Below, one piece after another: positions 1 to 7,836 of a DNA stretch of 7,836 nucleotides. This DNA comes from a virus. Its lineage: Duplodnaviria; Heunggongvirae; Uroviricota; Caudoviricetes. Location: the IMG/VR virus record IMGVR_UViG_2695420687_000010, positions 1-7,836 of that record; one strand, 5' to 3'. Position numbers and translations under genes: made by a program. Positions within the stretch are counted from its first letter, which is position 1. The number at the start of each line of letters is the position of its first letter. The notes under the pieces are model-generated. The model did no database searches. It had not been told where the DNA came from and saw nothing but the letters and a program-made list of their open reading frames with translations.

Positions 1-142
1 ATTGTCTGGATCAGCGAAACTGACGCCCGTGAACTGTCCATTGTTGATAACGACTGGGTGGAAGTGTTTAACGCTAATGGCGCACTGACGGCCCGTGCGG
101 TGGTCAGCCAGCGTGTACCGCCAGGCATGACCATGATGTATC
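1..142 (+). CDS. narG: Respiratory nitrate reductase alpha subunit (NarG/NarZ family), internal fragment near the C-terminus; truncated at both ends, 3' end abuts NNN
   Basis: Frame 1 translation from nt 1 reads IVWISETDARELSIVDNDWVEVFNANGALTARAVVSQRVPPGMTMMY, matching from memory the C-terminal region of E. coli NarG; the paralog NarZ cannot be excluded. No start or stop codon; the frame is broken at NNN (143-145). Confidence 0.6.
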
Positions 143-145
143 NNN

Positions 146-1232
146 CCAACCGATGGCCGAATTATGGATGGGCGCACATCCCAAGAGCAGTTCACGTGTG
201 CACAACGCCGCCGGAGAGGTTGTTTCACTGCGCGATGTAATTGAAAGCAATAAATCCACTCTTTTGGGTGAGGCTGTTGCCCGGCGCTTTGGCGAACTGC
301 CTTTCCTGTTCAAAGTATTATGCGCAGCCCAGCCGCTCTCCATTCAGGTTCATCCGAACAAACGCAATTCTGAAATCGGTTTTGCCAAAGAAAATGCCGC
401 CGGTATCCCAATGGATGCCGCCGAGCGAAACTATAAAGATCCGAACCACAAGCCGGAGCTGGTTTTTGCTCTGACCCCTTTCCTCGCGATGAACGCGTTT
501 CGTGAGTTCTCCGAGATTGTTTCTCTGCTCCAGCCAGTCGCTGATGCGCATCCAGCCATTGCTCACTTTTTACAGCAGCCCAATGCCGAACGCTTAAGCG
601 AACTGTTCGCCAGCCTGTTAAATATGCAAGGTGAAGAGAAATCCCGTGCACTGGCAATTTTAAAATCGGCGCTCCACAGTCAACAGGGTGAACCGTGGCA
701 AACGATTCGTTTAATTTCTGAATTTTACCCGGATGACAGCGGCCTGTTCTCCCCGCTGCTGTTGAATGTGGTGAAGCTGAATCCAGGTGAAGCCATGTTC
801 CTGTTCGCCGAAACGCCACATGCCTATCTGCAAGGCGTGGCGCTGGAAGTGATGGCGAATTCCGATAACGTGCTACGTGCGGGGCTGACGCCAAAATATA
901 TTGATATCCCGGAACTGGTCGCCAACGTTAAGTTCGAAGCTAAGCCAGCCAATCAGTTGCTGACCCAGCCAGTAAAACATGGCGCAGAGCTGGACTTCCC
1001 GATCCCGGTTGATGATTTTGCTTTCTCGTTGCATGACCTTAACGATAAAGAGTGCACTATCGGTCAACAAAGCGCGGCGATTCTGTTCTGCGTAGAAGGC
1101 GAAGCCACGCTAAATAAAGACTCTCAGCAGTTGCTGCTTAAACCTGGCGAATCAGCGTTTATTGCCGCCAATGAGTCACCAGTCAAGGTCAAAGGCCATG
1201 GCCGTTTAGCCCGGGTTTACAACAAACTGTAA
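146..1232 (+). CDS. manA: Mannose-6-phosphate isomerase (type I PMI), 5'-truncated; about 32 N-terminal codons missing
   Basis: Translation (..QP)MAELWMGAHPKSSSRV...QVHPNK...GHGRLARVYNKL is near-identical to recalled E. coli ManA from residue ~31 to the C-terminus. Codons 147-152 (caa ccg = QP) precede the ORF-track Met, showing the gene continues upstream into the NNN. Stop TAA at 1230-1232. Several substitutions relative to recalled K-12 suggest a non-K-12 lineage. Confidence 0.93.
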
Positions 1233-1289
1233 GAGCTTACTGAAATAGTTAACATCTCTTGCTAAGCTTATTAAAGGCTTATAACACTT

Positions 1290-1319
1290 TCAGGCGGCCA
1301 GTCCGCCTGATTTCATTTT
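1290..1319 (+). terminator. Putative rho-independent terminator downstream of manA
   Basis: Inverted repeat aggcgg(1292-1297)/ccgcct(1303-1308), extendable to 8 bp with a 5-nt loop, followed by T-rich tttcatttt, 58 nt after the manA stop. Confidence 0.5.
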
Positions 1320-1332
1320 ACGGATAATCATT

Positions 1333-2145
1333 ATGAAAAAATCGCTGGTAGCGGTAGGCGTCATTGTTGCGCTCGGCGTAGTCTGGACAGGCGGCGCGTG
1401 GTACACAGGCAAGAAACTGGAAACGCATCTCGAAGAGATGGTTGCGCAGGCGAATACGCAACTTAAACTGACAGCGCCTGAATCCAACCTCGAAGTCAGC
1501 TATCAAAACTATCATCGCGGCGTATTCAGTAGCCAGTTGCAGTTAGTTGTGAAACCCGTTGCTGGCAAAGAAAATCCGTGGATTAAAAGCGGGCAGAGCG
1601 TCATCCTCAACGAAAATATCGACCACGGCCCCTTCCCTCTGGCTCAGCTTAAAAAGCTGAATTTAATTCCGTCGATGGCCTCAGTTCAAACGACGCTGGT
1701 CAATACCAACGTCACTAACCCATTGTTTGAGATGGCAAAAGGTGAAACACCTTTTGTGATTAATTCCCGTATCGGTTATAACGGCGACTCCAGTTCTGAT
1801 ATTTCCCTCAAACCACTGAATTACGAGCAAGAAGGCGAGAAAGTTGCTTTTAGCGGCGGTGAATTTCAACTAAATGCCGACAAAGATGGAAAAGCGATCT
1901 CTCTGTCTGGAGAAGCGCAAAGCGGCATTATAGACGCCGTTAATGAGTACAACCAGAAAGTACAGTTGACCTTTAATAATCTCAAAACTGACGGCTCCAG
2001 CACGCTGGCAAGTTTTGGTGAGCGTGTAGGCAATCAAAAACTGTCGCTGGAAAAAATGACTATTTCCGTTGCAGGTAAAGAGCTGGCATTGCTGGAAGGC
2101 ATGGAGATCAGCGGTAAATCAGNCCTTGTAAACGACGGCAAAACG
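1333..2145 (+). CDS. ydgA: DUF945-family protein YdgA, 3'-truncated (about 271 of ~500 codons); contains ambiguous base at 2123
   Basis: ORF begins MKKSLVAVGVIVALGVVWTGGAWYTGKK (hydrophobic signal/anchor-like N-terminus) immediately downstream of manA on the same strand, the known E. coli K-12 manA-ydgA synteny. The reading frame ends prematurely (TAA 2179-2181) shortly after the ambiguous base at 2146, where phage sequence on the opposite strand takes over. Confidence 0.78.
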
Positions 2146-2146
2146 N

Positions 2147-2672
2147 CAGGGGGTTTTTGGCGCCATACGCCTGCGCAGTAAGTCCGGTAGTGCTCATGCG
2201 CCTCGGTGACTTTCAGTACCTCCTCAGAACTGTAACCATACTCCCGCATGGAAGATGCAGAACGGGCAAAAAGGCTGGCGTTATCAGAAAACGCCGTCCC
2301 CGTTCTCTGGCTGATCGCCATTAATTCACGCTGTGATGCCTGAAAATCATCACTGGACTGTGAGGCCTGCTTCAGACGGGCATTTACTGAATTCCACTCA
2401 TCGGCGAGAGAAATAAGATGACCGGTAGCAAAAGCCCCGGCAAATGCCCCCGCCATATTCAGTGCCGAAGATTTAGCTGTATTTATCTGATCCGTCACTT
2501 CTGCCAGTGCACGCCGCATTTCACGGGAGGCAGCAGCAGACTGTTGGCCTCCGTTCTGCATGGTGCGGTAGTAATCCTGCCCCATACGCGAAGCCCGGGA
2601 GATCTCTGACTGGAATGACCGGGAGTTTGCCGAGATTTTAATAATCAGTTCACGTAATGTCGCCACACTCAT
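2147..2672 (-). CDS. Phage tail tape measure protein, N-terminal ~175 codons only (3' end cut at breakpoint)
   Basis: Minus-strand ORF MSVATLRELIIKISANSRSFQSEISRASRMGQDYYRTMQNGG...NMAGAFAGAFATGHLISLADEWNSVNARLKQ has N-terminal tape-measure character and sits directly downstream of the G/G-T chaperone pair, as in lambda/HK97 tail modules. Start is ATG at 2670-2672; GTG at 2664-2666 has better spacing to GGAG. The exact 3' breakpoint is uncertain (about 2146-2200). Confidence 0.7.
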
Positions 2673-2682
2673 TCTCCGGACG

Positions 2683-2704
2683 AAAAAAAACCGCCGAAGC
2701 GGTT
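2683..2704 (-). terminator. Weak intrinsic terminator or RNA hairpin between the T-frame stop and the tape-measure start
   Basis: On the minus-sense RNA: AACCGC-UUCG-GCGGUU (6-bp stem with UUCG tetraloop) followed by a U-run (plus-strand A8 at 2683-2690), then GGAG and the start codon. Confidence 0.45.
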
Positions 2705-2712
2705 ATGTTGAC

Positions 2713-6874: not shown

Positions 6875-6875
6875 N

Positions 6876-7064
6876 ACTTTCTACCGGACGCGCCCACAGG
6901 GCTTCATCCAGCCGGTAAGCCTGCTGTTCATCTTCACAGGCGATGAGTACGCGCTTACCGTTGCGCCAACGTTCTGCGGCAATTTCACACACCAGCTGCT
7001 CAACGGCGCTTAAGCCATCGACGGTGGTGTCATTGTCCAGAAGGTAGAACGTTGCGTTTTTCAT
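6876..7064 (-). CDS. holC: DNA polymerase III chi subunit, 5' fragment (first ~63 codons), fused in frame to the capsid ORF
   Basis: From ATG 7062-7064: MKNATFYLLDNDTTVDGLSAVEQLVCEIAAERWRNGKRVLIACEDEQQAYRLDEALWARPVES matches recalled E. coli HolC residues 1-63. The next codon contains N at 6875 (ntt, compatible with Phe64 of HolC); after it the sequence is capsid, not HolC. Confidence 0.85.
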
Positions 7065-7116
7065 ATATGAGGCTTCTTGTGGTGGATTTAAATACACATC
7101 AGGTAAACACCGTATT

Positions 7117-7153
7117 GCCCGATGCGACGCTATCGCGTCTTATCAGGCCTACG
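7117..7153. repeat. REP (repetitive extragenic palindromic) element
   Basis: gcccgatgcgacgctatcgcgtcttatcaggcctacg matches the E. coli REP consensus (GCCKGATGCGRCG...CGYCTTATCMGGCCTAC), in the holC-pepA intergenic region. Confidence 0.8.
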
Positions 7154-7167
7154 AGTTCAGTGCTGTG

Positions 7168-7203
7168 TAGGTCGGATAAGGCGTTTACGCCGCATCCGAC
7201 AAT
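7168..7203. repeat. REP element in inverted orientation (forms a BIME with the 7117-7153 copy)
   Basis: taggtcggataaggcgtttacgccgcatccgacaat is the reverse-complement form of the REP consensus, 14 nt from the first copy. Confidence 0.8.
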
Positions 7204-7220
7204 AACAATGCCTGATGCAA

Positions 7221-7331
7221 TTACTCTTCGCCGTTAAATCCGGCGCGGTTTAGCAGGAACTGTGCCAGCAACGCTACCGGACGACCGGTTGCGCCTTTTG
7301 CCTTGCCAGAACGCCAGGCGGTTCCGACGGT
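7221..7331 (-). CDS. pepA: Aminopeptidase A (leucyl aminopeptidase, M17 family), 3' fragment (last ~36 codons)
   Basis: C-terminal translation ..[34 protein letters not shown] matches the recalled E. coli PepA C-terminus. Stop TAA at 7221-7223. Native synteny (pepA upstream of holC with REP in between) is preserved for this block. Confidence 0.8.
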
Positions 7332-7478
7332 GTCCAGCGCTGCCATTTCAGCGTCACGCGTTACTTTCGCCAGAATAGACGCGGCGCTGATTTCCGGCAC
7401 GCGGCTATCGCCTTTAACTACTGCCATCGACGGCATAGGCAATTTCGGACAGCGATTCCCATCAATCAATACATATTC
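7332..7478 (-). CDS. rnhB: Ribonuclease HII, internal fragment (about 49 codons), fused in frame to the pepA 3' fragment
   Basis: [49 protein letters not shown] matches recalled E. coli RnhB (about residues 103-151), including the conserved RNase HII motif SIAAASI(L/I)AKVxRD. Flanking sequence on both sides is not RnhB. Boundaries are approximate (+/- 6 nt). Confidence 0.75.
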
Positions 7479-7769
7479 CTCCTTGGTGTAGGAATCTGGT
7501 GTCGGGCATTCACATTCAAGAGAAACCTTCGTGCCATTCGACCAGTTCATAACATCGGGCAAAACCGTATTCGCTACGTTCTTTTTTAGGCTGCGTCGTA
7601 AATGCGCGAAATGCTTCTGATTTTGCGTGTTGTTAGCATACAGGCGTAGTAGTAGCGCCAATGCGCTATCTTTCTCCAGTATGCTATCGCCTGCAATGTC
7701 TGGAGGTATTTCATCTGTGAATAAATCATCAAAATCCACCTCACACCTCCAGATGTGATAATTCGGCAC
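7479..7769 (-). CDS. Unidentified ORF fragment (about 86-96 codons) fused in frame to the rnhB fragment; hypothetical protein
   Basis: Minus-strand translation (V)[96 protein letters not shown] is not recognised from memory. Start candidates: GTG 7767-7769, or GTG 7737-7739 preceded by GGAGG at 6-nt spacing. In-frame TAA 18 nt upstream of 7769 bounds the ORF. Confidence 0.35.
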
Positions 7770-7836
7770 GTAATTCTCGTAGTCGTGTTATCGTTTCGTC
7801 ATAGTGCGCAATATTACTTTGCTTATCATTGTATTG

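What the first reader, a model, noticed from the sequence alone, without database searches (positions are those of the whole stretch)
1..7836. Window is a patchwork of non-adjacent E. coli loci plus a prophage fragment; likely chimeric assembly or artificial concatenation
Recognisable blocks (narG-like, manA-ydgA, phage head-tail module, holC-REP-pepA, rnhB, unknown) map to loci that are far apart in E. coli K-12 (manA/ydgA ~36 min, narG ~27 min, holC/pepA ~96 min, rnhB ~4 min). Every block boundary lies inside an ORF, with no IS elements, att sites or repeats at the joins. Three boundaries coincide with ambiguous bases (143-145, 2146, 6875), and a fourth N lies at 2123. Three of the four same-strand joins preserve an open reading frame, which is somewhat more than chance and hints at a non-biological or homology-biased joining process. 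This determines how everything else in the window should be read.
Basis: partly seen in the sequence, partly recalled or inferred. Interest (0 to 1): 0.6.

Follow-up and report, generated by a model that had tools for sequence, protein, structure and literature searches.

The report
Chimeric contig in E. albertii draft
The window is one whole 7.8-kb contig from a public draft genome in which eight unrelated pieces of an Escherichia albertii chromosome, a prophage and a plasmid are stitched together inside genes, which is almost certainly a sequencing or assembly artefact and not a biological structure.

Summary
The patchwork is real and finer than first described. The window is the complete contig CDRK01000176.1 (7,836 bp) of NCBI assembly GCA_000936005.1. 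It holds eight blocks and seven joins: narZ (1-142), manA-ydgA (146-2145, exactly 2000 bp), a 52-bp dinF piece, a 4.7-kb HK97-type prophage head-tail module, holC-REP-pepA, a 147-bp rnhB piece, a 101-bp lpfD-like fimbrial piece, and the start of a plasmid dynamin-family gene pair.

The one chromosomal block with an E. albertii reference (manA-ydgA) is 99.6% identical to the type strain and 87% to E. coli. The other chromosomal blocks are 88-94% to E. coli (the lpfD-like piece only 76%).

All seven joins cut coding sequence. No repeat, IS, att site, tRNA or RNA element lies at any join. No two blocks are adjacent in any of 5,426 complete E. coli genomes. None of the three N-free join sequences tested turned up in the collection(s) it was scanned against. 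The fusion protein spanning three joins is a singleton among about 15 billion proteins.

Frame preservation (4 of 6 same-strand joins) is not significant and fits joining at short chance homologies.

Verdict: a non-biological chimera of low interest. The step that produced it cannot be identified without the reads.

The parts
1..142 (+). Block A: internal fragment of narZ (nitrate reductase Z alpha subunit), cut by the contig start
   Evidence: 94.4% identical to E. coli narZ over 142 nt. Maps to MG1655 1,539,104-1,539,245.
143..145 (.). Join J1 (NNN): narZ(+) to manA(+), same strand, out of frame
   Evidence: The Ns are in register with the manA parent. 'TC' at 141-142 is shared by both parents. 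narZ codons start at positions congruent to 1 mod 3 and manA codons at 0 mod 3 (from the coordinates).
146..2145 (+). Block B: manA from codon 30 to its stop, the spacer, and ydgA codons 1-271. Exactly 2000 bp, with one internal N at 2123
   Evidence: 99.6% identical to E. albertii NBRC 107761 with no indel and 87.2% to E. coli. The divergence is mostly synonymous. The E. albertii reference continues past both ends.
2146..2146 (.). Join J2 (N): ydgA(+) to dinF(-), opposite strands
   Evidence: Both parents diverge sharply from the window on either side of the N. Only 1 nt is shared.
2147..2198 (-). Block C0: 52-bp internal fragment of dinF (MATE efflux transporter), encoding MSTTGLTAQAYGAKNPL
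   Evidence: 88% identical to dinF in 4,661 E. coli genomes. The peptide is 100% identical to MatE/PF01554 fragments. It is never adjacent to the tape-measure gene in any phage or E. coli record.
2199..2201 (.). Join J3 (no N): dinF(-) to tape measure(-), same strand, out of frame, with a 3-nt overlap CGC
   Evidence: The dinF match runs to 2201 and the phage match starts at 2199. The codon registers differ.
2199..6874 (-). Block C: HK97-type siphophage head-tail module. It holds tape measure codons 1-156, tail chaperones G/T, an Ig-domain major tail protein, tail completion gp17, an HK97-gp10-like protein, head closure, head-tail connector, and the major capsid protein lacking about 12 N-terminal codons
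   Evidence: 99.9% identical to prophages in many E. coli genomes. 99.7% over the full length to phage vB_EcoS-733R4 and relatives.
6875..6875 (.). Join J4 (N): major capsid(-) to holC(-), same strand, in frame. This creates a 456-aa HolC(1-63)::capsid fusion ORF (5694-7064)
   Evidence: The ORF uses the native holC start (7064) and the native capsid stop (5694). About 2 nt are shared at the join.
6876..7337 (-). Block D: holC 5' end (63 codons), a spacer with a REP element (7166-7203), and the last ~36-39 codons of pepA
   Evidence: 92-93% identical to E. coli holC-pepA. The REP element matches other MG1655 loci.
7327..7337 (.). Join J5 (no N): pepA(-) to rnhB(-), same strand, in frame. The crossover lies inside an ~10-nt stretch where the two parents are nearly identical
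   Evidence: The E. coli parents read CGAT[A/G]TCCAG in register, 9 of 10 identical. The window reads CGGTGTCCAG.
7333..7479 (-). Block E: 147-bp internal fragment of rnhB (RNase HII residues ~104-151)
   Evidence: 88-90% identical to E. coli rnhB. The peptide is 48/48 identical to Escherichia RnhB proteins.
7480..7580 (-). Block F0: ~101-bp fragment of an lpfD-like fimbrial gene. It is flanked by joins J6 (7479/7480) and J7 (7581-7587), both same strand and in frame
   Evidence: 76% nt identity to a 'fimbrial protein' gene lying between lpfC and lpfE. 30/42 aa identical, E = 3e-15, in the same codon register as the dynamin start. No plasmid carries it next to block F.
7581..7836 (-). Block F: the first ~51-53 codons of one plasmid dynamin-family gene plus the last 31 codons of the upstream dynamin-family gene, cut by the contig end
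   Evidence: 99.2% identical to 10 Escherichia plasmids, including E. albertii NZ_CP030779.2. The only two mismatches (7583, 7586) are in the first 6 nt; 7587-7836 is 250/250.
7221..7739 (-). 172-aa fusion ORF: dynamin N-terminus + LpfD-like fragment + RnhB fragment + PepA C-terminus, ending at the native pepA stop
   Evidence: Translation. Called as a gene on the source contig. Singleton cluster on one contig.

Best explanation
The window is a non-biological chimera. It is a misjoined contig in a draft assembly of an Escherichia albertii isolate that also carries an HK97-type prophage and a dynamin-gene plasmid.

Shown: eight genuine, high-quality fragments from unlinked places were strung together into one record. 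The places are five chromosomal loci spread round the chromosome, one further chromosomal lpf-like locus, a prophage and a plasmid.

Inferred, from my own knowledge of assembly tools: either a scaffolding and gap-closing step abutted or merged small contigs, or a physically chimeric template (co-ligated or template-switched fragments, or one chimeric long read or clone later polished) was carried into the assembly.

Three joins kept one to three Ns that replace bases in register. The other four are seamless, and at least one of them (J5) sits inside an ~10-nt near-identity between the two parents. The fusion ORFs are by-products of the joins and not real genes.
For: Source: the window is the complete 7,836-bp contig CDRK01000176.1 of GCA_000936005.1, seen in one sample.

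Block map and identities.

Adjacency:
- No place in 5,426 complete E. coli genomes covers more than one block.
- The E. albertii type strain is collinear with E. coli through both ends of block B.
- All phage hits stop at 2199 and all plasmid hits stop at 7581.

Uniqueness:
- The J6 40-mer is absent from GTDB representative genomes, IMG/VR and JGI metagenomes. J5 is absent from the metagenomes and J3 from IMG/VR.
- The fusion protein is a singleton among about 15 billion proteins.

Anatomy:
- All seven joins truncate conserved genes, and some blocks are only 52, 101 and 147 bp long.
- No repeat, tRNA or Rfam element lies at a join.
- Ns sit at three of the seven joins.
- The only two mismatches of block F lie in the 6 nt next to join J7.

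Frame bias: chance shared 5-11-mers between unrelated enterobacterial genes are same-strand and in-frame 23-37% of the time, against 16.7% for blunt random joins. That makes 4 of 7 unremarkable, p about 0.10.
Against: - No reads or assembly metadata were available, so the artefact is inferred from comparative evidence, not shown directly.
- No paper describing the assembly was found.
- Sequence quality inside the blocks is high. There are no indels, and the mismatches to the E. albertii reference in block B do not cluster at the ends.
- Overlaps at J1-J4 are only 1-3 nt. That is too short for any overlap-merging algorithm I know, so at least those joins need a different route (abutment by a scaffolder, or physical ligation).
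- Six of seven joins are same-strand and four of seven are same-strand and in-frame (p = 0.06 and 0.018 under blunt random joining, post hoc). That hints the joining was not fully random.
- The exact 2000-bp length of block B is unexplained.
Confidence: 0.92

Rival explanations
1. Sub-hypothesis of the artefact: purely computational misjoining. A scaffolder placed tiny contigs next to larger ones on the strength of spurious read pairs. A gap closer then shrank the gaps to 1-3 Ns, or merged ends wherever a short overlap was found.
For: Ns lie exactly at three joins. There are very small internal blocks of 52, 101 and 147 bp. J5 lies in a ~10-nt near-identity between the parents. From memory, SSPACE writes a single n for a negative gap and GapFiller merges on overlaps of about 10 nt; I did not verify either point here.
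Against: J3 is seamless with only a 3-nt overlap. The Ns replace bases in register with a parent and do not mark real gaps. The assembler used for this record is unknown.
Confidence: 0.45
2. Sub-hypothesis of the artefact: a physically chimeric template. Sheared fragments of very different sizes were co-ligated or template-switched during library construction. The resulting molecule (for example one chimeric long read or clone, later polished with short reads) entered the assembly as its own contig.
For: Block sizes are very uneven, from 52 bp to 4.7 kb, within a contig of typical long-read or clone length. Overlaps at J1-J4 are 1-3 nt, close to what blunt joining gives. Ns and junction-adjacent miscalls (7583, 7586, and the base after 6875) sit where short reads could not polish across a join.
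Against: Blunt ligation predicts random strand and frame, but 6 of 7 joins are same-strand. The 9/10 parent similarity at J5 is unlikely by chance. There are no indels of the kind long reads leave.
Confidence: 0.4
3. A genuine DNA molecule in the strain. Fragments from many loci were joined in vivo by microhomology-mediated illegitimate recombination, for example after chromosome breakage or during aberrant phage packaging or excision, giving a real mosaic segment or extrachromosomal element.
For: There are short overlaps at the joins, 1-3 nt at J1-J4 and about 10 nt at J5. There is a same-strand and in-frame excess. A phage module sits at the centre.
Against: - Seven joins in 7.8 kb draw on at least six unlinked chromosomal loci plus a plasmid.
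- Every gene involved is truncated, including the phage capsid and tape-measure genes, so there is no functional phage, no replicon and no mobility gene.
- There are no att, IS or direct-repeat signatures.
- The arrangement is seen in one contig of one assembly only.
- Ns sit at the joins.
- No comparable structure turned up in 5,426 E. coli genomes.
Confidence: 0.04

Closest known systems
Misassembled (chimeric) contigs in draft bacterial genome assemblies
   Same: Unlinked loci are joined inside genes. Ns lie at some joins. The arrangement is found in one record only and is contradicted by every reference genome. It creates spurious fusion ORFs.
   Different: The density is unusually high, with seven joins in 7.8 kb. 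Some blocks are as short as 52 bp. Four joins are seamless with almost no overlap.
Library chimeras (co-ligation or template-switch artefacts, including chimeric long reads and MDA chimeras)
   Same: Fragments of uneven size are joined at zero to a few bases of microhomology. One join sits at a longer near-identity, as in template switching.
   Different: From memory, MDA chimeras are mostly inverted and link nearby sequence. Here 6 of 7 joins are same-strand and the partners lie megabases apart. The library type of this assembly is unknown.
HK97-type lambdoid siphophage head-tail module (applies to block C only; e.g. Escherichia phage vB_EcoS-733R4, Stx2f phage phi467)
   Same: Gene order and 97.9-99.9% nucleotide identity from the tape measure gene to the major capsid gene.
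   Different: Only an internal 4.7-kb slice is present. It is cut inside the tape measure and capsid genes and is not flanked by the rest of the prophage.

Membership tests
Chimeric / misassembled contig | Adjacent segments map to non-adjacent loci in all reference genomes | tested here: met
   No place in 5,426 complete E. coli genomes covers more than one block. MG1655 positions are 0.205, 1.539, 1.689, 4.258 and 4.484 Mb. The E. albertii type strain is collinear with E. coli through both ends of block B.
Chimeric / misassembled contig | The junction sequences are private to one assembly record | tested here: met
   Three join 40-mers were each absent from the collection(s) scanned. The truncated ManA and the fusion ORF are each found only on CDRK01000176.1. 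The fusion protein is a singleton.
Chimeric / misassembled contig | No reads, or only anomalous reads, span the joins | not testable with these tools
Prophage or genomic-island insertion (a real mobile-element boundary) | Boundaries marked by att-type direct repeats, often at a tRNA gene, with an integrase and a complete element | tested here: not met
   No tRNA. No repeat family touches a join. The phage block is cut inside the tape measure and capsid genes, and no integrase is present.
IS- or transposon-mediated rearrangement | IS ends or a transposase at the joins, with target-site duplications | tested here: not met
   No part of the window matches an IS or transposase. The IS hits lie in reference genomes, not in the window. 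No direct repeats lie at the joins.
Specialised transducing phage or illegitimate phage-host recombinant | One phage-host junction formed at short homology, with the host DNA coming from next to the attachment site and the phage otherwise intact enough to package | tested here: not met
   Host DNA from at least six unlinked loci plus a plasmid is present. Both ends of the phage block are internal to structural genes.
MDA-type amplification chimera | Predominantly inverted joins between sequences a few kb apart (criterion recalled from memory) | tested here: not met
   Six of seven joins are same-strand. The partners lie megabases apart.

The most novel reading that the evidence does not exclude
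The contig records a real mosaic DNA molecule formed in vivo in an E. albertii strain. Fragments from shattered chromosome, prophage and plasmid DNA would have been rejoined by microhomology-mediated end joining, with a bias to same-strand, in-frame fusions.
Probability: 0.03. Interest if true: 0.75.

Novelty: not a real feature. Interest (0 to 1): 0.06.

Why it matters
Its main value is as a warning. Every fusion ORF, apparent gene truncation and odd neighbourhood in this window should be ignored: HolC::capsid, dynamin::LpfD::RnhB::PepA, truncated ManA, and YdgA with a foreign tail. These spurious proteins are already in public protein collections as singletons. The record also shows that blocks which look like E. 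coli can come from E. albertii. If the mosaic were real, it would be an unprecedented case of multi-fragment end joining in an enterobacterium, but nothing here supports that.

Tried and rejected
1. Artificial (simulated) divergence in the 2000-bp block. Rejected: the mismatches to E. coli are 80% third-position, transitions outnumber transversions 2:1, and the block is 99.6% identical to E. albertii.

2. The idea that 2147-2198 and 7480-7580 are just divergent continuations of the phage tape measure and plasmid dynamin genes. Rejected: they are dinF and lpfD-like fragments, and all phage and plasmid hits stop at the same base.

3. A shared restriction site at the joins. None is visible in the junction sequences.

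4. Getting near-identical E. albertii parents for rnhB and pepA, to measure the overlaps at J5-J7 exactly. This failed. P0067's gene is only 87% identical. P0077 comes from an unrelated assembly.

5. A literature search for the accession found nothing. The only E. albertii/ENA paper retrieved (PMC5189129) describes a different project.

6. The F0 peptide got no hit in the word-indexed protein search, even though a related E. coli protein exists. I therefore treat that negative result as uninformative.

7. Rfam, tRNA and repeat scans found nothing at the joins.

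
Full report
**What is in the window**

The sequence carries Ns at 143-145, 2123, 2146 and 6875. I searched the window and its parts against 5,426 complete E. coli genomes, and against plasmid and phage records. I then refined the matches by local alignment to fetched reference loci.

| Block | Coordinates | Content | Best identity |
|---|---|---|---|
| A | 1-142 | narZ (not narG) | 94.4% to E. coli |
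| B | 146-2145 | manA (from codon 30) to ydgA (codons 1-271), exactly 2000 bp, no indel | 87% to E. coli; 99.6% to E. albertii NBRC 107761 |
| C0 | 2147-2198 | dinF fragment | 88% to E. coli |
| C | 2199-6874 | HK97-type head-tail module, from the first 156 codons of the tape measure gene to the major capsid gene lacking ~12 N-terminal codons | 99.9% to E. coli prophages; 99.7% full-length to phage vB_EcoS-733R4 and relatives |
| D | 6876-7337 | holC 5' end, a REP-containing spacer, pepA 3' end | 92-93% to E. coli |
| E | 7333-7479 | rnhB fragment | 88-90% to E. coli |
| F0 | 7480-7580 | lpfD-like fimbrial gene fragment | 76% nt; 30/42 aa, E = 3e-15 |
| F | 7581-7836 | junction of two plasmid dynamin-family genes | 99.2% to 10 Escherichia plasmids, one from E. 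albertii |

The C0 peptide MSTTGLTAQAYGAKNPL is 100% identical to MatE-family fragments.

**Source organism and record**

The divergence of block B from E. coli is natural. Of its 251 coding mismatches, 200 are at third codon positions, transitions outnumber transversions 2:1, and the encoded proteins are 91-95% identical. The block is near-identical to the E. albertii type strain. So the chromosomal parts come from E. albertii and not from E. coli K-12. For the other chromosomal blocks this rests on their 88-94% identity to E. coli, because no E. albertii reference was available for them.

Exact-protein look-ups of two products that can only exist on this chimera both returned a single place. 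These were the N-terminally truncated ManA and the 172-aa fusion ORF. That place is the complete 7,836-bp contig CDRK01000176.1 of NCBI assembly GCA_000936005.1, seen in one sample. The window is therefore a whole contig of a draft assembly. I found no paper that mentions the accession.

**Are the blocks contiguous anywhere else?**

They are not, in anything I could search.

- In MG1655 the chromosomal blocks lie at 0.205 Mb (rnhB), 1.539 Mb (narZ), 1.689 Mb (manA-ydgA), 4.258 Mb (dinF) and 4.484 Mb (holC-pepA), on mixed strands.
- In none of the 5,426 E. coli genomes does one place cover more than one block.
- The E. albertii type strain is collinear with E. coli for 4.2 kb straight through both ends of block B.
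- Every phage hit stops at 2199 and every plasmid hit stops at 7581.
- The J6 40-mer is absent from the GTDB representative genomes, IMG/VR and the JGI metagenome contigs. The J5 40-mer is absent from the metagenomes, and the J3 40-mer from IMG/VR.
- The fusion protein is a singleton cluster on one contig in a collection of about 15 billion proteins.

**Anatomy of the joins**

All seven joins are between coding sequences.

| Join | Genes | Ns | Strand | Frame | Overlap between parents |
|---|---|---|---|---|---|
| J1 | narZ(+)/manA(+) | NNN | same | out | 2 nt (TC) |
| J2 | ydgA(+)/dinF(-) | N | opposite | n/a | 1 nt |
| J3 | dinF(-)/tape measure(-) | none | same | out | 3 nt (CGC, 2199-2201) |
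| J4 | capsid(-)/holC(-) | N | same | in | ~2 nt |
| J5 | pepA(-)/rnhB(-) | none | same | in | ~10 nt, 9/10 identical |
| J6 | rnhB(-)/lpfD-like(-) | none | same | in | unresolved |
| J7 | lpfD-like(-)/dynamin(-) | none | same | in | T-rich zone, unresolved |

- J4 produces a 456-aa ORF that uses the native holC start and the native capsid stop.
- J5-J7 produce a 172-aa ORF that ends at the native pepA stop.
- The Ns replace bases in register with a parent and do not mark real gaps.
- At J5 the E. coli versions of pepA and rnhB read CGAT[A/G]TCCAG in register.
- The only two mismatches of block F to all the plasmids lie in its first six bases, next to J7.
- No repeat family, tRNA or Rfam family touches any join. 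No part of the window matches an IS element.

**Is the frame preservation meaningful?**

| Observation | Null expectation | p (post hoc) |
|---|---|---|
| 6 of 7 joins same-strand | 1/2 | 0.06 |
| 4 of 6 same-strand joins in frame | 1/3 | 0.10 |
| 4 of 7 same-strand and in frame | 1/6 | 0.018 |

I also measured this on 48.7 kb of real enterobacterial coding sequence. Chance shared words of 5-11 nt between unrelated genes are same-strand and in-frame 23-37% of the time. If the joins formed at short homologies, 4 of 7 is unremarkable (p about 0.10). It needs no selection for open reading frames.

**Interpretation**

The simplest account is a non-biological chimera. Seven joins in 7.8 kb draw on at least six unlinked chromosomal loci, a prophage and a plasmid. 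Every gene involved is truncated, including the phage's own capsid and tape-measure genes. Some blocks are as short as 52 bp. Ns lie at three joins. No mobile-element signatures are present, and the arrangement occurs in one contig of one draft assembly.

I cannot tell which step produced it. A scaffolding and gap-closing route fits the Ns and the ~10-nt near-identity at J5. It does not fit the seamless J3, which has only 3 nt of overlap. A physically chimeric template, later polished, fits three things:
- the very uneven block sizes;
- the near-blunt joins;
- the miscalls next to the junctions.

It does not predict the same-strand excess.

What I recall about how particular scaffolders and gap fillers behave was not verified here. 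The exact 2000-bp length of block B remains unexplained. It could be coincidence (roughly a 0.6% chance that one of six internal blocks is a multiple of 1000), or it could hint at a scripted step.

A genuine in vivo mosaic is not strictly excluded, because I could not see the reads. I put it at a few percent.

**Verdict**

This is not a real genomic feature, and the fusion ORFs should not be interpreted. Interest is low.

Noticed in passing
window 2713-3401 (- strand): The tail assembly chaperone pair has the classical layout. The G-like ORF (PF06222) ends ...GTT AAA AAA AAG TAG, and the T-like ORF (PF06223) lies in the -1 frame downstream. This fits a programmed -1 frameshift on the A-run at 3018-3026, as in lambda G/GT.
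   Followed up: partly
window 2199-6874: The head-tail module is 99.7% identical over its full length to induced E. coli siphophages (vB_EcoS-733R4, -640R1, -716R1, -813R8). In the tape-measure stretch compared (2199-2330) it is 99.2% identical to Stx2f-converting phage phi467 of HUS strain EF467 (PMC5189129). The source E. albertii strain may therefore carry an Stx2f-type or related prophage.
   Followed up: partly
window 7166-7203: A REP element in the holC-pepA spacer matches REP copies at three other MG1655 loci that I had fetched for unrelated reasons.
   Followed up: no
window 7581-7836; L006 (NZ_CP148580.1 112274-120529): Block F comes from a rare plasmid gene cluster: three consecutive dynamin-family genes followed by a 'CFI-box-CTERM domain-containing protein'. 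It was found on only 10 Escherichia plasmids, one of them E. albertii NZ_CP030779.2. The cluster itself may be worth a look.
   Followed up: no
window 146-2145: The manA-ydgA block is exactly 2000 bp between N runs. A round number is unexpected for a natural or assembler-defined fragment, and I could not explain it.
   Followed up: partly
proteins P0075, P0076 (ENA contigs of about 4 kb) and P0077 (L092, GCA_029782595.1 contig JARCCX010057997.1): Other public records hold odd RnhB fusions. Two have a non-Escherichia N-terminal 70 residues joined to an Escherichia RnhB C-terminus. One has its N-terminal 52 residues duplicated in tandem. Misjoined contigs that yield spurious fusion proteins seem not to be rare in the protein collections.
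   Followed up: partly
window 7480-7580: The lpfD-like fragment is only 76% (nt) and 71% (aa) identical to the closest E. coli gene. A word-indexed search of 5.8 billion proteins found no near-identical protein. Its true parent, presumably an E. albertii lpf-type operon, was not identified.
   Followed up: partly
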